A program made the position numbers and the translations under genes. From NCBI GenBank assembly GCA_963664535.1, contig OY761465.1:841350-905349 (forward strand): a stretch of 64,000 bases of DNA, given 5' to 3'. The notes beneath the pieces were generated by a model. It was given only the letters and a program-made list of their open reading frames with translations. It was not told where the DNA came from and did no database searches. Below, piece after piece: positions 4,616-21,160 of the stretch. Position 1 is the first letter of the stretch; each line of letters starts with the position of its first letter. The stretch is from Candidatus Binatia bacterium. Lineage in GTDB: Bacteria > Desulfobacterota > Binatia > UBA9968 > JAJDTQ01.

Positions 4616-6817
4616 TCACTCCTCCACCGCAAACGGGCCGTATCGCTCGTAGAGCTCGCGGAGCCTGGCCTTGTAGTAGTCCACGTTCTCATCGGGGCTG
4701 GCCGGGTCCCATTCCGAGACGTGCCGGCAGTTCTCGTTCACCCTGACGTTGGCCCCTTCCCCGGCGACGTAGCAGGAGACCTGGTCTCCGGGCAGATGCT
4801 TCCGGTGCGACCGGAGCGCCACCTCGTAGGCGCCCCGGGGATGCTGCTTCCCGCCCTTGACCTTCACCTGGTAGTCGTCGAGTGATTCCCGCAGGGTCTC
4901 GGTCCGCTTCAGCAGGGACAAGTCGAGGCGATGACCCGTAATGTCCTCGCGATACCGCTCGTAGAGGGCGGGCACCTCGCCCTTGCGCCCCTCCAGCAGA
5001 AGCCGGAGCATCTCCTCCAACCACCGGCGCCGGTAGCGCTCGAGCCCCCGGAAGCTCAAATCGGAGCCGGCGAGGAAAAGTTCGTCGTGCTCGTCCAGCA
5101 GCGCGTGATTCTCCGGTCCGTGGCAGAAGACGGCCCGATAGCGCGCCAGGGGCAGATCCACCTTCCAGGGCAACGACGCTGAGGCCTCCGATATCAGCGC
5201 TTCCGCCGACCCGGCCGGGGGGACAAAGTAGATGCCGCCGGCATCCAGCGTGACCACCCGGGCACGGCGTTCCTCCAGCCCCACGGCCAGGGCGCGGACC
5301 AGCTCTCCACCGGCTCGGGTCACATGGTTTGCGGCGGCAAAGTCGTTGAAGTGGCCCGGGGGCCACGCCAGATAGTCGTGGAACGACTCCAGCACCCCCT
5401 TGAGAGCGGACCGCGCCGTGGCGACGAAACGGGAAGGGTCCCCCGGCGGCGCGGCATCGGCCACCGGCCCGGCCCGCTCCCGCAGCTCCCGGAACCCGCG
5501 CAGCAAGGCCGGGAAGACCCCGAGTTCGTCGGTTCCAGGACGGCAGTCGCCGGCGGCCATCACCGCCGGGTACAGGGCCGTGACGTCGCAACGGATGGCC
5601 GGCCGCGAGACCCCCGGGACCTTCAGGCCCGTGTACTTCGCCTCCACGGGCTCCGGGGCCATCGGGACGGGAATGGCGTACCGCCGGGCGAGATACTCCC
5701 TGAGCAGCAGGCCTTCGACCTTGGCCGGACCGTCCACTAGCGCAGTCTCCTGGTAACGGCATGGGAAGACCCGCGCCTGGAGGTAGCAGCCCGGCGACAG
5801 CAGCGCCGATATGGCCCGGGTCTCGCGCACGTCGTCGAGGGCGTAGCGGAAGAGGGTGTCGGGATCGTGATCGAAGTACCAGCTCGCCTGTTCGCCCGGA
5901 ATATAGGTCCGGTCCGGAGCCGCCACGCCGAAATGGCGCGCCACGTCCTTGAGGCCGTTCCGCTTGAGCTCGGGATTCGTTTGGCTGTAGCGCTGGGCGA
6001 GAAACCACGTATCGATGACGTGGCGCCCGTGGATGGCGTAGTCGCGGTACGGAATCACCCGGTCGCCGGCGTCGAACCGCGCCCGGCCGTGCCGGAGCCC
6101 GCTGCCGTCCCTGCCCACCGTCAGGTCCACGCCGTACCGGCGCGCGCGCTCTTCGATGTAAGGCAGGTCGAAGCGGAAGATGTTGTGACCCTCGATCACG
6201 TCCGGGTCGCGGTCACGGATCTCCCGGACCATTTCCGCCAGCATCCCGGCCTCGTCGTGTTCCCGGCCGGATATGAGACGTTCCCAGCCGCTGCTGTCCG
6301 ACATGGCCACGGCGGTGATGCGGTCGCCTTCCCGAAGCGGATTGGGGAACTCGAACCCGTCCGTGCGATACACTTCCAGGTCGATCTGCATGCGGACGAG
6401 GCGGTCGAAGCCCATGCCCAGGAAATGGGTCGTCCCGGACCAAAGGAGGTACTGCTGCACGGGATCGCGGAGGTACAGACAGGGTGAGCCGGGAGCGCCC
6501 AGGCTTCTGCCGCTCTTGCGCTGCAGCCAGGACCTCGCCGACTCCAGGCTCTCGACGTCGGGGAATCGGGCCAACCAGCGGAACGCGCCCGTCCCCGACA
6601 GAGGCTCGACGCGGCACGGGCCCTTCCATCCCGCGATCTTGTCCTCGGATGTCAGCCAGAGGAACGGCTCGAACGGGACAGTCGTGGAAGCCACACCGGA
6701 CGAGGTCCTGGAGAATATCCGGATGTGGCGGTTGCCGTCGAGCTCCACGCCGACCACGTCCTGCGTCGCATCGCGGCCGTACAGCAGGGTATCGTATGGG
6801 GGGGTCGAATCGCACAT
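4616..6817 (-). CDS. family B DNA polymerase (Pol II-like) with a 3'-5' exonuclease domain
   Basis: Exo I MQIDLE, Exo II NIFRFDLPY, Exo III HVIDTW; Pol motif A DVTALYPAV; a region resembling motif C reads TLDAGGIYF; start is uncertain (Met at 6817 or the ORF start at 6967). Confidence 0.7.
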   Translation of the reverse strand: MCDSTPPYDTLLYGRDATQDVVGVELDGNRHIRIFSRTSSGVASTTVPFEPFLWLTSEDKIAGWKGPCRVEPLSGTGAFRWLARFPDVESLESARSWLQRKSGRSLGAPGSPCLYLRDPVQQYLLWSGTTHFLGMGFDRLVRMQIDLEVYRTDGFEFPNPLREGDRITAVAMSDSSGWERLISGREHDEAGMLAEMVREIRDRDPDVIEGHNIFRFDLPYIEERARRYGVDLTVGRDGSGLRHGRARFDAGDRVIPYRDYAIHGRHVIDTWFLAQRYSQTNPELKRNGLKDVARHFGVAAPDRTYIPGEQASWYFDHDPDTLFRYALDDVRETRAISALLSPGCYLQARVFPCRYQETALVDGPAKVEGLLLREYLARRYAIPVPMAPEPVEAKYTGLKVPGVSRPAIRCDVTALYPAVMAAGDCRPGTDELGVFPALLRGFRELRERAGPVADAAPPGDPSRFVATARSALKGVLESFHDYLAWPPGHFNDFAAANHVTRAGGELVRALAVGLEERRARVVTLDAGGIYFVPPAGSAEALISEASASLPWKVDLPLARYRAVFCHGPENHALLDEHDELFLAGSDLSFRGLERYRRRWLEEMLRLLLEGRKGEVPALYERYREDITGHRLDLSLLKRTETLRESLDDYQVKVKGGKQHPRGAYEVALRSHRKHLPGDQVSCYVAGEGANVRVNENCRHVSEWDPASPDENVDYYKARLRELYERYGPFAVEE

Positions 6818-6991
6818 CACGGGTCTACCGGCGAGGGATCGAGCGACGAATCCCGGACCCCGTGGACTTTCTACCAGATCCGTCCGGTTACGGGAATGCG
6901 GGCTCGACCCGCTCCCGAAGTCCGGGCACGCCGGCGCCGGGTTTGCAGCCCCGGCTGGTGCTGCCATGAACAGATGTGCTAGAGAACAACC

Positions 6992-8255: not shown

Positions 8256-8531
8256 ATGATTACGCAACACGTCGGGGAAGCGGCCCTGCCGGACATCGAG
8301 GCATGGGCCAACGCCATCATCCGCTCGGAGGACGACACCGTGAAAGCGGTGGAGTCCTATCACGACGCGGACTCCAACACCTACGTCATCCGCCTGACCC
8401 GGGACGCCCGGGTGCTGCTCTTCCGGCTCTCGGAAGCGCAAGTGCACACCCCGGAACGCGAACCCGAGTGCGAGAAGACCCTCCGGAACAGAGTGAAGGA
8501 AGTACGCCGGTTGCTGGGACGGATGGCATGA
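8256..8531 (+). CDS. hypothetical protein (91 aa)
   Basis: ATG at 8256 in the frame of ORF 7806-8531; protein-like composition; no recognisable family. Confidence 0.35.
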   Translation: MITQHVGEAALPDIEAWANAIIRSEDDTVKAVESYHDADSNTYVIRLTRDARVLLFRLSEAQVHTPEREPECEKTLRNRVKEVRRLLGRMA

Positions 8532-8550
8532 GCCGCCCGGATTTCGCGCG

Positions 8551-9519
8551 CTACAGTCCGGCCGCCATCTCTTTCGCGAAGTAGGTGAGAATCAGGTCGG
8601 CGCCGGCCCGCTTGATGGACAGCAGGACCTCCGGGACCACGGTGCTCTCGTCGATCCAGCCGTTCTGGGCCGCGGCCTTGATCATGGCGTATTCGCCGCT
8701 CACATTGTAGGCGGCGGTGGGATGATTGAAGCGCTGTTTCACACGCGAGATGACGTCCAGGTACGACAGCGCCGGCTTCACCATCACGATGTCGGCGCCC
8801 TCGGCGATATCCGCCTCCACCTCCCGCAGCGCCTCGTCGCTGTTGCCCGGGTCCATCTGATAGGAACGCCGGTCGCCGAACTGCGGGGTCGATTCCGCGG
8901 CCTCGCGGAAAGGCCCGTAGAAACCCGACGCATACTTGGCGGCGTAGGCCATGATGACCACGTTCTCCAGACCATCTCCGTCCAGCGCGGCGCGAACCGC
9001 CCCCACCCGGCCGTCCATCATGTCGGAAGGAGCGACGACATCGGCCCCGGCGCGGGCGTGGGACAGGGCTTCCTTCGCCAGCAGCTCCAGGGAGGCGTCG
9101 TTGGCCACCTCTCCGTCCTCGATGATGCCGCAGTGGCCGTGGTCGGTGTACTCGCACAGGCAGACGTCGGTGATCACCAACAGGTCCGGGACCCTGTCCT
9201 TGATGGCCCGGACCGCTTCCTGTACCACGCCGTTCTCGGCGTAGGCTTCCGAGCCCACGGCGTCCTTGGTCTCGGGGATTCCGAAGAGGATCACGCCGGG
9301 AATGCCCAGATGCCATACGGTCTCGGCCTCGCCGGCGGCCCGGTCCGCCGAAAGCTGGGCGACGCCGGGCATGGAAGTCACCGGTTGCACCCGGTCGCGC
9401 CCCGGGCACACGAACAACGGGTAGATGAAGTCCCGCGGACTCAGAGCGGTCTCGCGCACCAAGTCGCGCAAAAGGCCGGTCCGCCGAAGTCTTCGCGGTC
9501 GGGTGACGGGAAATGCCAT
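8551..9519 (-). CDS. hemB: porphobilinogen synthase (delta-aminolevulinate dehydratase)
   Basis: full-length 322 aa with active-site lysines in [12 protein letters not shown] and SGEYAM; typical HemB N-terminus RPRRLR. Confidence 0.92.
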
Positions 9520-9617
9520 GGGTTGCCTCCCTCAGGTGCGGTCTGTCGCAGCGCGGACGGGATTGAAACTTGCTTGTCTAGTGTCGTGTCCCACGTAAAT
9601 GTTGACAAAGATGCGAA

Positions 9618-9986
9618 TTAACCGGACAGGACACTAGCTTTGTCGGGACCACACAGAAACCATCCGTCATGCCGCCCCAGCGCGTGCGCCCAGAGCGCCT
9701 CCTCACCCCCGTCCAACGCGATGCCCTGTATCTGAACCAACAGTTTGGCGCGTTCGCCGTCGCCAACAGGATGCACGGCCGACAGCGAAACCCGTAGCTC
9801 GCTGGCGACAATGGACTGCTCCGTCCGACGCCGCTGAAAGCCCGTCTGCGTCTCCATCACGCAAAGTTCAACGGTTTCCACCCGATAGCCACCGACCAGC
9901 GCCTGCCACGAGCCCGTCCGATGCGACTCGATGATCGCGTTCGTGTCCACGAGCAGCGCCGTCTCGTGGTCGACCCTTCTGCTCAC
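9618..9986 (-). CDS. DUF4411-type PIN-like protein (putative toxin/nuclease partner of the ImmA-HTH protein)
   Basis: GTG start overlaps the upstream TGA (GTGA); N-terminal LLVDTNAIIESHRTGSWQAL fits the DUF4411/PIN-like pattern. Confidence 0.55.
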   Translation of the reverse strand: MSRRVDHETALLVDTNAIIESHRTGSWQALVGGYRVETVELCVMETQTGFQRRRTEQSIVASELRVSLSAVHPVGDGERAKLLVQIQGIALDGGEEALWAHALGRHDGWFLCGPDKASVLSG

Positions 9987-11086
9987 AGACCAATCGCCTG
10001 ATCGACGCCATGGGCGGCAAACAGTTCCTCCAAATCCTCGATCGCGAGCCCGACCAGAGCCGCCGCACGCCGAACCGAAACATGACCCTGGTCAATGGCC
10101 TTCGCCATCACCTCCACGAACGGCCGCGAGAACAAAGGCGGAGGCTCCGAGGAGTCCTCGCGGCCATTGTTCCGCAAGGCGGCGTCCGGAATTGCTCGCG
10201 CCTGTCTCTTGGTCAGCTCCCGGAGGGCGACCAAACGCCACCTGAGGGCCGACGAGGTCACACCCAATTCATCTGCCGTCGCGTTCAGTCGAGCGATCAA
10301 GTCACCCATGTCCAAGCGCCCCCAATCTCCAAAGGAGTCAAGCGCCGCCTTCGGCATCAGCACGGCGGCCGCGAAGTTGTTGGCCAGTTGTTCCACCCGA
10401 TTGCCGCCGAAATCGCTGGCTTCTTCCGTGTGCTCGGGCGGCATCGCTTCCCAGGTGAGGATGTGAAACAGCTCATGCGCAAGGTCGAAGTTGCGGCGCC
10501 CTGCCACTTCCCCTCGTGCGACCAGCACCGCGTCGAACTCAGGCAGGTGGCACGCCGCTCCGGAAATACCTCGGCAAGCGTCCACCATAAGCACGAGTAT
10601 CCCGAACTTGTCTTGCATCGCCGCCGCAAGACGTTGCGCCGGCACAACCCCGAGCTTGAACTCGGCAACAAACCGCTCGCCAGCATCCACCGCTTCCTCG
10701 AACCTCGACAGCTTGGTTAGCCCAAGGGCCTGTCGCATCAACGGCGCCCGTCGACCGACCTGCGCAGCCAGAACGCGGTACGCACCAATCCAGCGGCCAG
10801 CCGTCCGCTCATACTCGCCGAGTTCCGACCGTGTGACTCCCCTCTGTCGCCAGGAAAACAGCGCCTCCCCGTCCAACCGAAAGGGATCGGTGAAATAGTC
10901 GAGCGGCACACGCAGTTTCTCCACGGCGAGTAAGAGTTCTGCCGCAGTCACACGGCGTACGCCGGTCTCTATTGCCGACACGGTTTGCCGATCCTTGAAC
11001 CCGAACAAGCGCGCCATTTCATCCTGAGACAGAGCGCGCTCCTGTCTCAACGCCTTGAGCCGCGTACCGATGATCTGACGTGCCAC
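9983..11086 (-). CDS. fusion of an XRE-family HTH domain and an ImmA/IrrE (COG2856) Zn-metallopeptidase
   Basis: N-terminal HTH LKALRQERALSQDEMARLFGFKDRQTVSAIETG; HEXXH motif HELFHIL about 150 aa downstream. Confidence 0.8.
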   Translation of the reverse strand: MARQIIGTRLKALRQERALSQDEMARLFGFKDRQTVSAIETGVRRVTAAELLLAVEKLRVPLDYFTDPFRLDGEALFSWRQRGVTRSELGEYERTAGRWIGAYRVLAAQVGRRAPLMRQALGLTKLSRFEEAVDAGERFVAEFKLGVVPAQRLAAAMQDKFGILVLMVDACRGISGAACHLPEFDAVLVARGEVAGRRNFDLAHELFHILTWEAMPPEHTEEASDFGGNRVEQLANNFAAAVLMPKAALDSFGDWGRLDMGDLIARLNATADELGVTSSALRWRLVALRELTKRQARAIPDAALRNNGREDSSEPPPLFSRPFVEVMAKAIDQGHVSVRRAAALVGLAIEDLEELFAAHGVDQAIGL

Positions 11087-11204
11087 CGGGCCTCCTTTCT
11101 TCTAAGCTTGCCTTTTGGTAATTGCAAGAAATATACGCGAACGACGATTCGCGCGCAAGCCTTGGCCCAAGTTTAATTGGGTAACTGCCTCGGTTCAGGA
11201 TGAA

Positions 11205-11229
11205 AGGGGAGCGCCGAAGCGACTCCCCT
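11205..11229. terminator. GC-rich hairpin (AGGGGAG-N11-CTCCCCT) downstream of hemD; candidate terminator of the hemX-A-C-D transcript
   Basis: perfect 7-bp stem seen in the sequence; no clear U-tract. Confidence 0.25.
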
Positions 11230-11359
11230 TCGACGACGGCAGTACTGCACTCTACTTGGGCAAACTCTCCGGCGTGACCCGTCCGACACAGCCGCGACTA
11301 TCGGAACGCATGTTTAAGTAGCCGTGCGGTCCACTGGCAGGCGGGTTCGAAACCCGCCC

Positions 11360-12178
11360 CTACACATTCCTTCCGTGTTCATCCACGCCGGCCGTGCATT
11401 CTACCAGAGCCTGGATCAGGCCCGCCACGGTGTATTCCCGGGCCTCGACGTCCACCGTCAGGCCACGCTCGCGGGCGGCATTCGCGGTGATGGGGCCGAT
11501 GCAGGCCACCCGGGCCGCCGCCGGGACTCCCTCCCCGGCCTGTTCGAGCAGATCCATGAAAGCGCTCACCGTGCTTGGACTGGTGAACGTGACCCACTCC
11601 ACCTGCCCGAGGAGCCGCGCCAGCCGCCGGCCGCCATGCCGCACCGGTTCGTTCCGGTAGGCTTCCACCACCGTCACCGTCGCGCCCCACCGCCGCAGCG
11701 TCTCGGGAAGCACGTCCCGGGCTCCGGCTACCCGGGCGAGCAGGAAGCGGCGGCCCCGGACGCGCTCCGGGCCGAGGGCGGCGAGGATCCCTTCCGCGCG
11801 GAATTCTTCGGGCACCAGGGTCACCGAAAGGCCGTTGTCTTCCAGCAGGCGGGCGGTCTGCGGACCGATGGCCGCCACCCGAAGCCCCTCCAGCCTGTCG
11901 ACACATCCCAGCGCCTCGCAACGTTCCAGGAAGTGCCGGACGCCGTTGGCGCTGGTGAACACCAGCCAATCCTGTTCCGGGAGCCCGCGGACGGCCTCGT
12001 CCAGGGCGCCGGCGTCCCGAAGCGGCAGGATCTCCACCGTGGGAAAGACCACCGCCCGGGCGCCGAGGGCTTCGACGCCGCGGACGAAGGCGCCGGCCTG
12101 CTCGCGCGGACGGGTGATCAGGATCCGCTGTTCGGAGAGCGGAACGCCGCCGGAGTGCGCCACCGCCGTATCGCTCAT
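11360..12178 (-). CDS. hemD: uroporphyrinogen-III synthase
   Basis: ATG at 12178 preceded by GGGAGG and overlapping the hemC stop; ILITRPREQAGAF and duplicated HemD half-domains. Confidence 0.8.
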   Translation of the reverse strand: MSDTAVAHSGGVPLSEQRILITRPREQAGAFVRGVEALGARAVVFPTVEILPLRDAGALDEAVRGLPEQDWLVFTSANGVRHFLERCEALGCVDRLEGLRVAAIGPQTARLLEDNGLSVTLVPEEFRAEGILAALGPERVRGRRFLLARVAGARDVLPETLRRWGATVTVVEAYRNEPVRHGGRRLARLLGQVEWVTFTSPSTVSAFMDLLEQAGEGVPAAARVACIGPITANAARERGLTVDVEAREYTVAGLIQALVECTAGVDEHGRNV

Positions 12179-17008: not shown

Positions 17009-18103
17009 TCACTCACCGTAAAATCTCCGGGCATTTTCCTCGAGAAGTCCGGCCTTCGCGGACTCCGGCACGTCGCTCCGCTGCCGGAGCAACGCAACGG
17101 TTCCCTCGGTGCGGTCCCCGTGGGGATAGTCGGACGAGTAAAGCAGCTTGTCCGCGCCGATTTCCTCGATGACCTTGCCCAGCCCAGGCTCGTTTCCTTC
17201 ACAGCCGAAGAAGATCCGGCCCGAGTCGAGCAGCTCTCCCGGCGTCCGCGAGATCACCTCCGCGGCCCGGTAGGTGGGGCTCTCGTAGTGCTCGTCCATG
17301 CGTTCCACGTACGACGCAACCCAGTTGCAACCCCCTTCCAGAAAGGCGAAGCGTATGCGCGGGTAACGGTCCATCAGGCCGGTGCACAGCACGCTCGTAA
17401 GACCGGCCATGATCGGGAACAACCCCGCCAGCACCCGGGTGGGGAAGAACTCGGTGAACAGGTCGCTCACCCCGGGAAACTCGTAGCTGAAGTGCACCGC
17501 GACGGGCAATGCCACGGCGTCGGCCGCGGCCAAGAAGACCTCGTGCTCGGGATGCGCCAGCGCACGCGCGCCCACGGTGCCGTTGACCATGACGGCGGAA
17601 AGGCCGGCCTCCCGGATGCGGGCGACTTCCCGGGCCGCTCCCTCGGGATCGGCGAGACACACGAGGCCCACGCCCTTCAACCGGTCCGGCGCCTCGCGGC
17701 AAACCTCGGCCAGCCAGGTGTTGTACGCGCGGCACACCTCGTTGCCCAACACGCCGTCGGCCCATGAATTGATGTGCAGGAGATAGCTCGGGTAGAGGTA
17801 CTGGACGTCGATGTTCTCCTTGTCCAGGTCCTCGAGTCGCTCGGCCACGCTGGAGAGCACCTGGCTCCCCACCGAGGCCCGGCGGCTCTTTCCGACCTTG
17901 CCGCCGGGGGGCGCCGCGGTCCCGGGATTGCGCGCTCCCGGTTGGCCCGGACGGCGGTAGCGGGTCGAGCCGTCGGCGACCCAGAAGCTGTGGCCCTCGT
18001 CGTCTGTGATGAGTCTCGGACGATACCTGCGAAAGGCCGGCGCCATGTACTTCTCGAACACGGCCTCGGTTTCGAACAGGTGACCGTCGGCGTCAATCAC
18101 CAT
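17009..18103 (-). CDS. amidohydrolase_2 family metal-dependent hydrolase
   Basis: N-terminal VIDADGH and C-terminal SDYPH metal ligands of the amidohydrolase-2 (ACMSD-like) family; paralogous to ORF 37267-38355. Confidence 0.75.
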   Translation of the reverse strand: MVIDADGHLFETEAVFEKYMAPAFRRYRPRLITDDEGHSFWVADGSTRYRRPGQPGARNPGTAAPPGGKVGKSRRASVGSQVLSSVAERLEDLDKENIDVQYLYPSYLLHINSWADGVLGNEVCRAYNTWLAEVCREAPDRLKGVGLVCLADPEGAAREVARIREAGLSAVMVNGTVGARALAHPEHEVFLAAADAVALPVAVHFSYEFPGVSDLFTEFFPTRVLAGLFPIMAGLTSVLCTGLMDRYPRIRFAFLEGGCNWVASYVERMDEHYESPTYRAAEVISRTPGELLDSGRIFFGCEGNEPGLGKVIEEIGADKLLYSSDYPHGDRTEGTVALLRQRSDVPESAKAGLLEENARRFYGE

Positions 18104-18194
18104 GGTCGGTTTCCGGATTCAAGGGGTGGGCGGTGGAGGGCCGCAGGGCGGGGATTTCGCCAAGGGAACCCCCGCCCTGCCTGACCTGTCCGGT

Positions 18195-18830: not shown

Positions 18831-18960
18831 GGTGTCTCCTCCCTTTAGCTGTGACCGGTGGCCCAATCAGTCGAAAGTATCCGAGGAACAGATGTCGTGT
18901 CAACCTACACAGCGCGCTGATTTGGCTGGAAGTAGCCCTATTTGTGAGCTGGCGAGACGG

Positions 18961-19191
18961 TCAAGCCACCGCAACGAGCCGAATTACGTCTTCAAATTCG
19001 CGCACCGAACCGCCGCTTCGCCGTTCGTAACGGTCGACCTTAAAGTTCTGTGCAAGTATATCCGCGATTGCAAGCGCACAGTTGTCGTCGTCCACAAGCG
19101 GAAGCGCTTTGATTTCTCCAAGAGAAATCTCACCGCGATTAAGCAGCAGAGCAGCTGCAAGGCGTGCGGGGACCGCCGAATAGTTGAGCAT
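18961..19191 (-). CDS. small hypothetical protein (76 aa); second gene of the low-GC protease cassette
   Basis: ATG at 19191 preceded by GAGGAGG and separated by 1 nt from the upstream stop; ~50% GC against ~68% in flanks; no family recognised. Confidence 0.45.
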   Translation of the reverse strand: MLNYSAVPARLAAALLLNRGEISLGEIKALPLVDDDNCALAIADILAQNFKVDRYERRSGGSVREFEDVIRLVAVA

Positions 19192-19192
19192 T

Positions 19193-20140
19193 TCACGCCT
19201 CCTCACTATGCCGAGCATCTCTATTTTCGGGGTCGTTTCCGACTACCCCCGGCGGCATCGTTTTCAATAGCTCAGGGGGCAATCCTTTCAATTGCTCCCT
19301 CATCTTCGCTTGCTCCTGCTTTCGAATCAAGTCGTCTCTCTCCCTATTGAGTCCATGAATTTTCCACACTATATCTAAGGCTTCTTCCTCGATTTCATGT
19401 GCCTCCAACCCCAACTCTTGGACCTCACCGATTGTGATGCACCAACTATGATCAGCATACCCGGTCGTCAATAGTTCTCCAATACTCTTTGCACGCTCCC
19501 CTTCTCCTTTCAGCATCCTCGAAGACAGGAGCTTTTCAACGTACTCTCTCCCTACATCGAGCGACTTCTTGAAACTCCCGAGAGTCAGTGGAAACTGCAA
19601 CCTTTGCATGAGGCCCTCGGCCAGCTGAGAATTCCCGTTGGCAAACTCTTCCCGAATAAGTTGCAGGGTTGACTCTATGTGGAGAGGAGAGAACCGTTCT
19701 ACTCGCTGTTCTAAGGGGTTCATCTCTGTGATCTGTGGGTCCAACGGCCCTAGTTCTGCCACAGGTGTCATTAGGATCTCGTCACCAGCACAAATCAAGA
19801 GCGTCGCTGCACTTTTCGCCCATCGTGGGATGATGAAAGTGAGCTTCTCATTTCCGTAACGGCGAAACAGGAGAGCAAGGTTATACGCCGCATCAATATC
19901 TCCTCCACCAGAATCGATGACCACATCCAAAGACTTCCCACTATACTTTCCTGCCCTTAAGTCATCATAAACCCTATCAACCAGGGTATTCCGTATATTG
20001 GCCTCTCCGAGTAACAACGGAAAACACTCTGCGCCACGAATCGCGGCAAGCTCTTTGCAAACGCCATCGATTTCCTTGTCAATGGAAGAAATTGTTCTTC
20101 TTGATCTTGCGCGCGCCATCCTATCCTTCTTCCTAACCAC
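19193..20140 (-). CDS. ClpP/crotonase-fold serine protease of the S49/SDH (serine dehydrogenase proteinase) family
   Basis: IDSGGGDIDAAYNLALLF and WAKSAATLLICAGDEILMTP align to the ClpP/SppA core (nucleophilic Ser in AKSAAT); helical C-terminal extension; low GC. Confidence 0.6.
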   Translation of the reverse strand: MVRKKDRMARARSRRTISSIDKEIDGVCKELAAIRGAECFPLLLGEANIRNTLVDRVYDDLRAGKYSGKSLDVVIDSGGGDIDAAYNLALLFRRYGNEKLTFIIPRWAKSAATLLICAGDEILMTPVAELGPLDPQITEMNPLEQRVERFSPLHIESTLQLIREEFANGNSQLAEGLMQRLQFPLTLGSFKKSLDVGREYVEKLLSSRMLKGEGERAKSIGELLTTGYADHSWCITIGEVQELGLEAHEIEEEALDIVWKIHGLNRERDDLIRKQEQAKMREQLKGLPPELLKTMPPGVVGNDPENRDARHSEEA

Positions 20141-20239
20141 GAAGTTGTTCTCGAAAAAGACGATTACGCGGTTTCTTTCTCGAAATCAACTCTCCCATGT
20201 CCGTGGCGGGCGTCCGCTGTATGTGTGACCGCGACTCCT

Positions 20240-21160
20240 TTAGTCAACGCCCTTGACCAGCTGCACCCGGCTGGTGTCGCGCAGCTTGTCGAACCGCTCT
20301 CGCTCCACCTCGAAGTAGTGGGGTTGCGCGGAACTCTTGAGGATATAGTAATCGCCCTCTTTCGGGGATACCACCGTGTGGGTGATGGTGGATCCCGTCT
20401 TCGTCTCGATGCTGTACTCGAGGATGGGCCTTCCGCCGTCGAAACGCGTCTTCCCGTCCACTGAGAGAACCTCCTTGAAGCCTACCCTCGCCACGCGCTC
20501 CACGAGATCCTTCACCGGCCCCGCGTCGGTTTCTTCGTCCTCCCGCAGCCCCTCCACCTCGAACCCGCCGTCGCCGGCCTTCAACGCGTAGGACCCCAGG
20601 TCGATGCGGACGATGTCCTCCGCCGCCGTCTTGAGCAGCTCGGTATCGTACCACTGTCCCGCCTCCGCCGGAGCGTCGAAAGCGTTGAAGTCGATGGCGT
20701 AGGTGTGGTCGTCGCCGTCGAGACGGGCATGGACCCTGCGGAACCCGGGCGATGAGCCGAGGAAGACGTCGCCCAGCACCTCCGTCCCCTGGAGGAACCG
20801 CACCCGCCGTTCGAAACGGACCGGCGTCACCTTGAACTGCCTGGCCGCCACCAGGGTCTTGCCCACGGGCCAGGAGCGTTTGGCGTCGAGGAGCTTGTCC
20901 GCGAACTTCTCGAACCTGGCCGGCGACACCGGGAAGTCGCCCTTGTCGGCCAGCACCCAGCCGCCGTCCTTGCGGGCGAGGCGCAGCGTCGGCTTGTCCT
21001 GCCGCTCGATGGTCACCGTGTCCATGCTGCCGCGGTCCACGGTCAGAAGCGGCTTGTCCGCCTCCAAGGCGCCGGTGTCGTCGCTCGGGAGGTTGACCCA
21101 CACCACCAGACCGGCCTGGAGGACCAGCAACGACAGCAAGAGCTTGATCGATCGGCTCAC
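20240..21160 (-). CDS. DUF4340 domain protein (periplasmic accessory component of GldG-type ABC-2 systems)
   Basis: signal/anchor sequence; sits directly downstream of the GldF/GldG-like gene in the usual order. Confidence 0.6.
   Translation of the reverse strand: MSRSIKLLLSLLVLQAGLVVWVNLPSDDTGALEADKPLLTVDRGSMDTVTIERQDKPTLRLARKDGGWVLADKGDFPVSPARFEKFADKLLDAKRSWPVGKTLVAARQFKVTPVRFERRVRFLQGTEVLGDVFLGSSPGFRRVHARLDGDDHTYAIDFNAFDAPAEAGQWYDTELLKTAAEDIVRIDLGSYALKAGDGGFEVEGLREDEETDAGPVKDLVERVARVGFKEVLSVDGKTRFDGGRPILEYSIETKTGSTITHTVVSPKEGDYYILKSSAQPHYFEVERERFDKLRDTSRVQLVKGVD

What the first reader, a model, noticed from the sequence alone, without database searches (positions are those of the whole stretch)
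9618..11086. HTH-XRE/ImmA-IrrE metallopeptidase fusion translationally coupled to a DUF4411 PIN-like protein, inserted inside the heme operon
A 367-aa protein fuses an XRE helix-turn-helix to a COG2856 (ImmA/IrrE) HEXXH Zn-peptidase domain (HELFHIL). Its TGA overlaps the GTG start of a 122-aa protein whose N-terminus (LLVDTNAIIE...SWQAL) fits the DUF4411/PIN-like nuclease pattern. The pair sits between hemD and hemB on the same strand and splits what is otherwise a contiguous hemX-A-C-D-B cluster, so it looks like an insertion. Comparative-genomic work has predicted COG2856-Xre modules to be sensor/antitoxin-like partners of diverse toxins, but their mechanism is essentially uncharacterised.
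Basis: partly seen in the sequence, partly recalled or inferred. Interest (0 to 1): 0.6.

Follow-up and report, generated by a model that had tools for sequence, protein, structure and literature searches.

The report
Decayed regulator–PIN cassette inside heme operon
A 1.8-kb piece of foreign DNA inserted between two heme-synthesis genes carries an intact stress-type regulator/protease gene and a truncated, probably dead, PIN-nuclease gene: it is a leftover of a known kind of mobile defence-associated module, not a working new system.

Summary
The two ORFs exist as described: minus strand, 367 aa and 122 aa, with a GTGA stop/start overlap. The 367-aa protein is an XRE-HTH + Peptidase_M78 (HEXXH) fusion, and its modelled core resembles CapP and IrrE.

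The segment is a true insertion. Three relatives (hemD 94, 88 and 81% identical) have hemD abutting hemB. The 1772-bp insert (9570-11341) is flanked by a ~12-bp target duplication.

Two points need correcting:
- **The small protein is not DUF4411.** No Pfam hit was found for it or for 75 diverse relatives. Its family does have a PIN/VapC fold.
- **The window copy is truncated.** It has 122 aa, against about 174 aa in every homologue examined. Homology to a 94%-identical cassette stops at 9633.

The intact pair is widespread and always linked. It usually sits between drmMI and drmA of class 1 DISARM, or upstream of a DEAD-helicase/DUF1998 gene. The window has neither.

In the window lineage the regulator shows 16 synonymous and 1 non-synonymous codon changes. 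The PIN remnant shows 2 and 5.

HTH-M78 + PIN modules, and their DISARM association, are already in the literature. Verdict: a decayed remnant of a known kind; low interest.

The parts
9570..11341 (-). Inserted segment (1772 bp) between hemD and hemB
   Evidence: blastn of the window against the uninserted relative L087. Window 11342 and upward aligns to L087 up to 5964. Window 9569 and downward aligns to L087 from 5953. GC is 0.57-0.64, against 0.65-0.74 in the flanks.
11342..11353 (-). Left copy of the duplicated target (GTTTCGAACCCG)
   Evidence: The L087 spacer has a single GTTTCAAACCCG at 5953-5964. Both window junctions carry a copy.
9558..9569 (-). Right copy of the duplicated target (GTTTCAATCCCG)
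   Evidence: The native site lies in the loop of a small hairpin (GGGCGGGTTTCAAACCCGTCC) in the hemD-hemB spacer of L087 and L089.
9983..11086 (-). Intact gene for an XRE-HTH + Peptidase_M78 (ImmA/IrrE/CapP-like) protein, 367 aa, GTG start preceded by AAGGAGG
   Evidence: Pfam. PADLOC RmrA and capP hits. AF2 model pLDDT 89.5; top Foldseek hits are CapP 7t5t, IrrE 3dti and PprI 8sln. 95.9% identical to the protein of the intact cassettes. Window-lineage changes are 16 synonymous and 1 non-synonymous.
9618..9986 (-). Truncated PIN-like (VapC-fold) gene: 118 homologous codons, then 4 unrelated codons and TAA
   Evidence: 92% identical to P0001 (174 aa) over residues 1-118, then divergent. Nucleotide homology to L001-L006, L174 and L175 ends at 9633. 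The family fold is PIN.
11087..11160 (-). Cassette-derived upstream region with putative operator/promoter (CTTGCAA at 11128-11122, GGCAAGC at 11112-11106; palindrome GCGCGAA-N6-TTCGCG at 11154-11135)
   Evidence: Homology to the intact cassettes extends to 11160. The CTTGCAA/TTGCAAG 7-mer occurs in 44 of 56 distinct upstream regions of orthologues, against 0.02 expected per 130 nt. The consensus promoter scan found nothing.
11161..11341 (-). 181-bp left end of the insert, origin unknown; contains the hairpin GGGGAGTCGCTTCGGCGCTCCCC (about 11203-11225)
   Evidence: No match in any fetched locus or elsewhere in the window.
9570..9632 (-). 63-bp AT-rich right end of the insert, origin unknown; it supplies the new stop codon
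   Evidence: No match. The inverted repeat 9578-9591 / 9624-9637 (14 nt, 93% complementary) spans the breakpoint.
11360..12178 (-). hemD (context); its ATG overlaps the hemC stop
   Evidence: Pfam HEM4. Orthologues P0121, P0122 and P0132.
8551..9519 (-). hemB (context), now 1.84 kb downstream of hemD instead of about 60 nt
   Evidence: Pfam ALAD. Synteny in L087, L089 and L090.

Best explanation
The locus is a horizontally acquired 1.77-kb insertion in the hemD-hemB spacer. It carries a decayed copy of a mobile two-gene module: an autoregulated XRE-HTH/M78-peptidase protein (CapH-CapP-fusion or RmrA-like) translationally coupled to a VapC-fold PIN protein.

In its intact form this pair is a fixed unit. 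It sits inside class 1 DISARM loci (drmD-drmMI-[pair]-drmA-drmB). In the window's own clade it sits directly upstream of a 772-aa DEAD-helicase/DUF1998 protein.

Inferred mechanism of the intact module:
- The HTH domain represses a conserved GCAAGA/TCTTGC operator-promoter, and the protein keeps the PIN nuclease in check.
- A stress or infection cue activates the metallopeptidase, as ssDNA does for CapP and IrrE.
- This relieves repression of the downstream genes and/or frees the nuclease.

In the window only the regulator survives. The PIN gene has lost its C-terminal third and is most likely inactive, and the helicase is gone. What remains is a solo, selectively maintained HTH-M78 regulator plus a PIN pseudogene, transcribed in the same direction as hemB.

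Shown here: the insertion, the truncation, the folds, the gene linkage, operator conservation and the substitution pattern. Inferred: repression, the peptidase trigger, PIN toxicity and the loss of PIN function.
For: **Insertion**
- hemD is followed by hemB after 60-78 nt in L087, L089 and L090 (hemD 94, 88 and 81% identical), with the same synteny as the window.
- In many other phyla the tblastn matches to hemD and hemB lie within roughly 100-200 nt of each other.
- The junctions are precise and carry a ~12-bp duplication.

**Foreign origin**
- Window 9633-11160 is 94.2% identical to L001-L006, 93.8% to L175 and 83.5% to L174. In those loci the cassette sits in unrelated flanks.

**Truncation**
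- Nearly all of the 120 listed homologues are about 160-185 aa.
- The window lacks the nearly invariant residues L119 to W157.
- All 89 loci examined encode the full length.

**PIN fold**
-.
- Weak Pfam PIN hits in 7 of 75 diverse members.
- D14, E45 and E95 are invariant, and D115 nearly invariant, across 75 diverse members; D92 is nearly invariant among the 80 closer homologues.

**Obligate pairing**
- An M78 orthologue lies directly upstream in 86 of 89 loci. The other 3 have too little or no upstream sequence.

**Context**
- DrmA lies downstream in 49 of 78 loci that have room, and DrmMI upstream in 36 of 49.
- The PIN stop overlaps the drmA ATG (ATGA) in L134.
- The helicase/MZB gene follows in the window's clade.
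- No DISARM or helicase gene is present in the window.

**Regulator intact and constrained**
- The regulator shows 16 synonymous and 1 non-synonymous window-specific codon changes. The PIN remnant shows 2 and 5 (Fisher p=0.0027).
- The operator motif is conserved.
- The structure resembles CapP, IrrE and PprI.

**Literature**
-.
Against: - The truncated ORF is still open and translationally coupled. It keeps all four putative catalytic acidic residues (D14, E45, D92/E95, D115), so residual or altered activity is not excluded.
- Substitution counts for the remnant are tiny (7 codons). Lineage assignment assumes a star tree of three sequences, and some changes may predate the truncation.
- No toxicity, protease, DNA-binding or expression data exist for this family.
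- The vehicle and mechanism of insertion are unidentified. The end segments have no matches, and there are no terminal inverted repeats, integrase or transposase.
- The C-terminal domain of the regulator is all-helical, not the GAF domain of CapP and IrrE, so the trigger may differ.
Confidence: 0.72

Rival explanations
1. An intact, functional two-gene toxin-antitoxin/defence module. The 122-aa PIN protein is an active toxin, and the HTH-M78 protein is its antitoxin and sensor.
For: - The ORF is open, with a GTGA overlap.
- All four acidic residues are retained.
- Canonical VapC toxins are only about 130 aa (targets).
- Pairwise dN/dS of the remnant is 0.39, not 1.
Against: - The protein is shorter than every homologue in 89 loci.
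- Nucleotide homology breaks abruptly at 9633 and is replaced by unrelated AT-rich DNA.
- It loses beta-5 and three helices of the model and about 17 nearly invariant residues.
- Window-lineage changes are 2 synonymous and 5 non-synonymous, against 16 and 1 in the neighbouring gene.
Confidence: 0.12
2. A co-opted regulator. The retained HTH-M78 gene and its promoter now place hemB under stress-responsive control, or the protein acts as an orphan 'anti-addiction' antitoxin against incoming related cassettes. Either would explain its strong conservation.
For: - The gene is on the same strand as hemB and directly upstream of it. No consensus terminator lies between it and hemB.
- Window-lineage constraint (16 synonymous, 1 non-synonymous) is tighter than in the intact cassettes (32 and 18 pooled; p=0.027).
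- The operator/promoter region is retained.
- Related cassettes circulate in related genomes (L174).
Against: - There are no expression data.
- The constraint may simply predate the truncation.
- hemB has its own RBS, and the native 50-nt leader is retained.
- Numbers are small.
Confidence: 0.13
3. An assembly chimera or misjoin that places mobile DNA inside the hem operon.
For: The source is probably a metagenome-assembled genome. The cassette occurs in many contexts.
Against: - Both junctions are clean and carry a duplicated 12-nt target.
- Flanks on both sides are collinear with relatives over more than 10 kb.
- An identical 367-aa protein is recorded on a 4.31-Mb contig in NCBI/ENA.
Confidence: 0.03

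Closest known systems
HTH + DUF955/COG2856 (ImmA/IrrE) + PIN-like 'three-component' modules (Makarova 2009, PMC2701414; Matelska 2017, PMC5499597)
   Same: A fused HTH-M78 gene is followed by a co-transcribed PIN-like gene and sits on mobile or defence DNA. This is exactly the architecture described there for COG2405, DUF4411, PIN_14, PIN_20 and PIN_26.
   Different: The PIN family here is not DUF4411 by Pfam. Which Matelska cluster it belongs to could not be tested. The window copy is truncated.
DISARM-associated 'CapH-CapP fusion-like + vapC-like' genes (Lau et al. 2022, bioRxiv 10.1101/2022.04.27.489752)
   Same: A fused HTH/M78 regulator plus a VapC-like gene is linked to class 1 DISARM. 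The M78 core of the model matches CapP 7t5t best.
   Different: - In the loci seen here the pair lies between drmMI and drmA on the same strand, with PIN/drmA start-stop overlap. It is not upstream and divergent.
- The C-terminal domain is helical, not GAF.
- The window has no DISARM genes.
Rosmer (RmrA/RmrT) anti-phage toxin-antitoxin systems
   Same: RmrA is an HTH + ImmA-type protease antitoxin. PADLOC RmrA models match nearly the full length of the window protein (E down to 8e-17). Ernits 2023 notes the association of this antitoxin node with PIN-like toxins.
   Different: Scores are low (59 bits or less), so this is shared architecture rather than orthology. Characterised RmrT toxins are not PIN proteins; one of them depolarises the membrane.
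VapBC type II toxin-antitoxin systems
   Same: The toxin has a PIN fold with conserved acidic residues. The genes overlap and an HTH autoregulator lies upstream.
   Different: The partner is a 367-aa metallopeptidase fusion rather than a small labile antitoxin. The PIN protein carries a conserved ~50-residue C-terminal extension that VapC lacks.
ImmR/ImmA (ICEBs1) and DdrO/IrrE (Deinococcus)
   Same: An M78 peptidase cleaves an XRE repressor in response to DNA damage, which derepresses adjacent genes.
   Different: There the two functions are on separate proteins and no nuclease partner is involved. Cleavage in the present family is untested.

Membership tests
DUF4411 (PF14367) | Significant match to the Pfam DUF4411 model | tested here: not met
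   No hit at E<=10 for the window ORF or for 5 full-length homologues. No DUF4411 hit among 75 diverse family members at E<=1.
PIN-like superfamily (VapC group) | PIN fold (central parallel sheet flanked by helices) | tested here: met
   AF2 model of full-length P0001 has pLDDT 88.5 and pTM 0.86. The top 25 Foldseek PDB hits are almost all PIN/VapC proteins (1ye5, 1v96, 5h4g, 1v8o, 5wzf), at probability 0.95-1.0 and best E 1.5e-4.
PIN-like superfamily (VapC group) | Four conserved acidic active-site residues | tested here: met
   D14, E45 and E95 are invariant, and D115 nearly invariant, across 75 members at about 40% identity. D92 is nearly invariant among the 80 closer homologues. All are present in the window remnant.
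PIN-like superfamily (VapC group) | Sequence-profile match to a Pfam PIN model above threshold | tested here: inconclusive
   Only sub-threshold hits: PF01850 in 7 of 75 members (best E 0.001), plus PIN_3, PIN_4 and PIN_12 in 1-3 members. None for the window ORF.
PIN-like superfamily (VapC group) | Complete domain (full length relative to the family) | tested here: not met
   The window ORF ends at family residue 118 of about 174. It loses beta-5 and helices 116-172 of the model.
PIN-like superfamily (VapC group) | Nuclease activity or toxicity | not testable with these tools
   Needs expression and cleavage assays.
Peptidase_M78 / ImmA-IrrE-CapP (COG2856) | Pfam PF06114 above the gathering score, with an HEXXH motif | tested here: met
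   35.3 bits against a cut-off of 22. H204, E205 and H208 are invariant in 77 orthologues.
Peptidase_M78 / ImmA-IrrE-CapP (COG2856) | Fold similarity to solved CapP and IrrE | tested here: met
   Foldseek: 7t5t E 8.9e-4, 3dti 3.8e-3 and 8sln, each at probability 1.0, over about 165-180 columns.
CapP/IrrE subtype | C-terminal GAF-like sensor domain | tested here: not met
   Residues 260-360 of the model are entirely helical. Alignment to CapP and IrrE covers only about 170 columns, with TM 0.32 on the query.
Rosmer (RmrA/RmrT) | RmrA-type HTH + protease antitoxin | tested here: inconclusive
   15 PADLOC RmrA models hit (E 8e-17 to 3e-6, at most 59 bits), some over the full length. There is no curated cut-off, and the scores are far below those of an orthologue.
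Rosmer (RmrA/RmrT) | Adjacent RmrT toxin | tested here: not met
   The partner gave no PADLOC hit and has a PIN fold instead.
Class 1 DISARM | Presence of drmD, drmMI, drmA, drmB (and drmC) | tested here: not met
   tblastn of DrmA, DrmB, DrmMI, DrmD and the helicase/MZB protein against the 64-kb window gave no hits. They are present around orthologous pairs elsewhere.
Type II toxin-antitoxin module (generic) | Toxin neutralised by the adjacent antitoxin; autoregulated operon | not testable with these tools
   Only indirect support is available: overlapping genes, obligate linkage and a conserved operator-like motif.

The most novel reading that the evidence does not exclude
The HTH-M78 + PIN pair may be an integral and so far unstudied control or effector sub-module of helicase/DUF1998 defence machines. 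These are class 1 DISARM drmA/drmB and a compact 772-aa fused version. The pair would couple a stress-sensing protease switch and a nuclease to them.

In this genome the regulator may have outlived the system and been retained under strong purifying selection for a new host role. That role could be stress-responsive control of hemB, or immunity against re-invasion by related cassettes.
Probability: 0.15. Interest if true: 0.5.

Novelty: new member of a known kind. Interest (0 to 1): 0.25.

Why it matters
For the window itself it matters little. It is a datable example of a defence-island fragment landing inside a housekeeping operon and decaying, with the toxin gene lost and the regulator kept.

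The wider context is more useful. A PIN family of at least 771 clusters (50% identity) has no Pfam model. It is strictly linked to an HTH-M78 protein and is mostly wired into class 1 DISARM between drmMI and drmA. That suggests how some DISARM systems may be switched on, which can be tested directly with the intact loci, not with this remnant.

Tried and rejected
- **DUF4411 assignment.** Rejected.
- **Sequence searches against PDB.** The PIN profiles (A3, A4) and the M78 protein gave nothing meaningful, only a chance TRIM7 hit at E 0.09.
- **Exact-sequence look-ups.** Look-ups of the window's hemB and M78 proteins, and of P0241, found nothing. For the window's own M78 ORF the GTG start is translated as V, which may explain that miss.
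- **Genome-contig scan with hemB.** It found only distant relatives (71% or less), useful for operon architecture but not for strain comparison.
- **Helicase as a third core gene.** I first took the helicase/MZB gene to be a conserved third component. It is present only in the window's sub-clade, so the core is the pair.
- **The insert's 181-bp and 63-bp end segments.** No match was found in any fetched locus or elsewhere in the window. No terminal inverted repeats, integrase or transposase were found, so the vehicle is unidentified.
- **Consensus promoter/terminator scan.** It found no promoter, and its single terminator-like site (11154-11135) is the palindrome upstream of the M78 gene.
- **Pairwise dN/dS.** M78 gave 0.18 and the remnant 0.39, which was inconclusive on its own. 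The lineage-specific counts were more informative.
Full report
**The observation.** Both ORFs are on the minus strand at the stated coordinates. The first is 9983-11086 (367 aa, GTG start preceded by AAGGAGG). The second is 9618-9986 (122 aa). The stop of the first overlaps the start of the second as GTGA.

The 367-aa protein matches Pfam HTH_3 (1.5e-10, residues 10-65) and Peptidase_M78 (1.1e-8, 35.3 bits against a cut-off of 22, residues 195-262). It carries HELFH. The neighbours are hemB (8551-9519), hemD (11360-12178), hemC, hemA and a CcsA-like cytochrome-c assembly gene, all on the same strand. The 122-aa ORF has no hit in Pfam, NCBIfam or PADLOC, even at E<=10.

**It is a real insertion.** A search with hemD found closer relatives of this genome. 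In the three I looked up (hemD 94, 88 and 81% identical), hemD is followed by hemB after 60-78 nt. The surrounding synteny is the same as in the window: SLT/LysM, CcsA, hemA, hemC, hemD, hemB, a 91-aa gene and cytochrome c'; in L089 and L090 PAC2 and PolB-exo follow. A contiguous ccsA-hemA-hemC-hemD-hemB cluster is also common across many phyla.

blastn against the uninserted relative L087 places the junctions exactly. Window 11342 and upward matches L087 up to 5964. Window 9569 and downward matches L087 from 5953. The insert is therefore 9570-11341 (1772 bp), and 12 nt of the native spacer (GTTTCAAACCCG) are present on both sides in slightly diverged form. The target lies in the loop of a small hairpin in the native spacer. 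The insert's GC (0.57-0.64) is below that of the flanks. The duplication and the collinear flanks argue against an assembly chimera.

**What was inserted.** Window 9633-11160 is 94.2% identical at the DNA level to L001-L006, 93.8% to L175 and 83.5% to L174. In those loci the same HTH-M78 gene is followed by a 174-aa gene and a 772-aa DEAD/Helicase_C/MZB (DUF1998) helicase.

This ~4.2-kb three-gene cassette has the same left boundary, about 80 nt upstream of the M78 start, in every context. Its flanks are unrelated from one locus to the next: rve transposase fragments, an MFS gene, and a stretch carrying a DDE transposase and a short FAD_binding_5 ORF.

In the window, homology stops abruptly at 9633, which is codon 118 of the small gene. 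Four unrelated codons and a TAA follow, within 63 bp of AT-rich DNA of unknown origin. An inverted repeat (9578-9591 / 9624-9637) spans the breakpoint. The helicase is absent, and no DISARM gene is present in the 64-kb window.

**The small protein.** More than 1000 homologues exist in the 90% clusters. A profile search found 771 cluster representatives at 50% identity. Almost all are 160-185 aa. In 89 fetched loci the match always extends close to the C-terminus.

The region missing from the window contains many nearly invariant residues: L119, R120, C121, G122, R124, L125, G126, R128, R130, S133, L134, L137, L138, G142, R144, Y153 and W157.

An AlphaFold model of the full-length close homologue is confident (pLDDT 88.5, pTM 0.86). 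Its best PDB matches are PIN/VapC proteins: P. horikoshii VapC4 (1ye5, 1v96, 5h4g), PAE2754 and VapC20. They score probability 1.0, best E 1.5e-4 and target-normalised TM 0.6-0.7.

D14, E45 and E95 are invariant, and D115 nearly invariant, across 75 members at about 40% identity. D92 is nearly invariant among the 80 closer homologues. Those diverse members give only weak hits to Pfam PIN models (7 of 75 to PF01850, best E 0.001) and none to DUF4411.

So 'PIN-like' is right, 'DUF4411' is not, and the window copy lacks beta-5 and the last three helices of the fold.

**The large protein.** Its model is confident (pLDDT 89.5). The best structural match is CapP (7t5t, E 8.9e-4). It is followed by IrrE (3dti, 3dte), PprI bound to ssDNA (8sln) and an M. 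tuberculosis HTH-DUF955 regulator (6cyy). The N-terminal domain matches restriction-modification controller C-proteins. The C-terminal ~100 residues are all-helical, not a GAF domain. PADLOC RmrA (Rosmer antitoxin) and capP models hit weakly. The window protein is 95.9% identical to that of the intact cassettes. H204, E205 and H208 are invariant in 77 orthologues.

**Linkage and context of the intact pair.** An orthologous HTH-M78 gene (54-77% identical) lies directly upstream of the PIN gene in 86 of 89 loci. The other three have too little or no upstream sequence.

In 49 of 78 loci with room downstream, the next genes are DrmA and DrmB. In 36 of 49 with room upstream, DrmMI, and before it DrmD, precede the pair (PADLOC E down to 0 and 4e-261). 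In L134 the PIN stop overlaps the drmA start as ATGA.

In the window's own sub-clade the helicase/DUF1998 fusion takes the place of DrmA and DrmB. Other contexts also occur:
- L093: a GASH/DO-GTPase conflict system beside the conjugation genes TrwB and TrwC.
- L091: no recognised defence genes downstream of the pair, in an island near gidA and trmE.

Upstream of the M78 start there is a conserved arrangement, GCAAGA..TCTTGCAA-N9-tGCAAGATTATA-N12-GGAGG. The 7-mer CTTGCAA/TTGCAAG is present in 44 of 56 distinct upstream regions, against 0.02 expected. The window retains it (11128-11122, with a second half-site at 11112-11106). I read this as an autoregulatory operator overlapping a promoter. That is an inference, and the consensus promoter scan found nothing.

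**State of the window copy.** I compared the window, L002 and L175 codon by codon. Changes unique to the window lineage are 16 synonymous and 1 non-synonymous in the M78 gene. In the PIN remnant they are 2 synonymous and 5 non-synonymous (Fisher p=0.0027). So the regulator has been kept under strong purifying selection while the remnant looks relaxed. The numbers are small, and some changes may predate the truncation.

Decay of this cassette is common elsewhere:
- L174 has a frameshifted PIN gene.
- L175 and L092 have split helicases.

**Mechanism.** By analogy with CapH/CapP, DdrO/IrrE, ImmR/ImmA and Rosmer (established in the literature), the intact module most likely works as follows. The HTH-M78 protein represses its own promoter, and with it the co-oriented downstream genes. 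It also restrains the PIN nuclease. A damage or infection signal activates the peptidase, which leads to derepression and/or nuclease release. None of this is shown for this family.

In the window the most likely state is a solo regulator plus a PIN pseudogene. Read-through into hemB is possible but untested.

**Comparison with what is known.** Three papers already cover this ground:
- Matelska et al. 2017 describe PIN-like genes (COG2405, DUF4411, PIN_14, PIN_20, PIN_26) co-transcribed with HTH and DUF955/COG2856 domains, often fused.
- Lau et al. [quoted passage not shown] They list a vapC-like gene beside it in Nocardia wallacei.
- Ernits et al. 2023 note that the ImmA/HTH antitoxin node of Rosmer is also paired with PIN-like toxins.

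The kind is therefore known. Two things are modestly new: this PIN family has no Pfam model, and in many loci the pair is embedded between drmMI and drmA. The window instance is a degraded copy.

**Verdict.** I rate it a new (decayed) member of a known kind, interest about 0.25.

Noticed in passing
L087:6976-7903 (closest relative; corresponds to window 8523-8550): The closest relative has its own ~930-bp insertion just downstream of hemB. It carries a UPF0175 antitoxin-like gene (7e-20) and a DUF3368 PIN-like gene split into two ORFs (1e-14). So the flanks of this hem operon have independently received two PIN-type modules, and the PIN gene is disrupted in both.
   Followed up: partly
L106-L173 (for example L134:204-12908): In about 49 metagenome loci the HTH-M78 + PIN pair is embedded in class 1 DISARM as drmD-drmMI-[HTH-M78]-[PIN]-drmA-drmB. 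The PIN stop overlaps the drmA ATG. The published example has the pair upstream of drmD instead.
   Followed up: partly
L174:9101-9566; L175:9754-12185; L092:7656-9230: Other copies of the three-gene cassette are also decaying. The PIN gene is frameshifted in L174, and the helicase/MZB gene is split in L175 and split and truncated in L092.
   Followed up: partly
L093:1024-14359: One orthologous pair sits between the conjugation genes TrwB and TrwC and a GASH / DO-GTPase2 / DO-GTPase1 / GAP1-N1 / caspase-EAD1 conflict system.
   Followed up: no
window 9578-9591 and 9624-9637: A 14-nt inverted repeat (93% complementary, 32-nt AT-rich loop) straddles the point where homology to the intact PIN gene ends. 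It may be a relic of the deletion or recombination event.
   Followed up: no
window 11203-11225: A GC-rich hairpin (GGGGAGTCGCTTCGGCGCTCCCC) followed by TTTCAT lies in the unmatched 181-bp left end of the insert, just downstream of hemD. It could attenuate read-through from hemD, but it did not meet the terminator scan's criteria.
   Followed up: no
window 4616-6967 (minus strand): A 783-aa ORF lies at the position where relatives encode a 738-aa protein with a family-B DNA polymerase exonuclease domain (PF03104), next to a PAC2-family gene. This is unusual for a bacterial chromosome. It was not examined.
   Followed up: no
window 17082-18191 and 18918-20244: blastn shows gaps in collinearity with relative L089. 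They may be further strain-specific insertions or deletions. Not examined.
   Followed up: no
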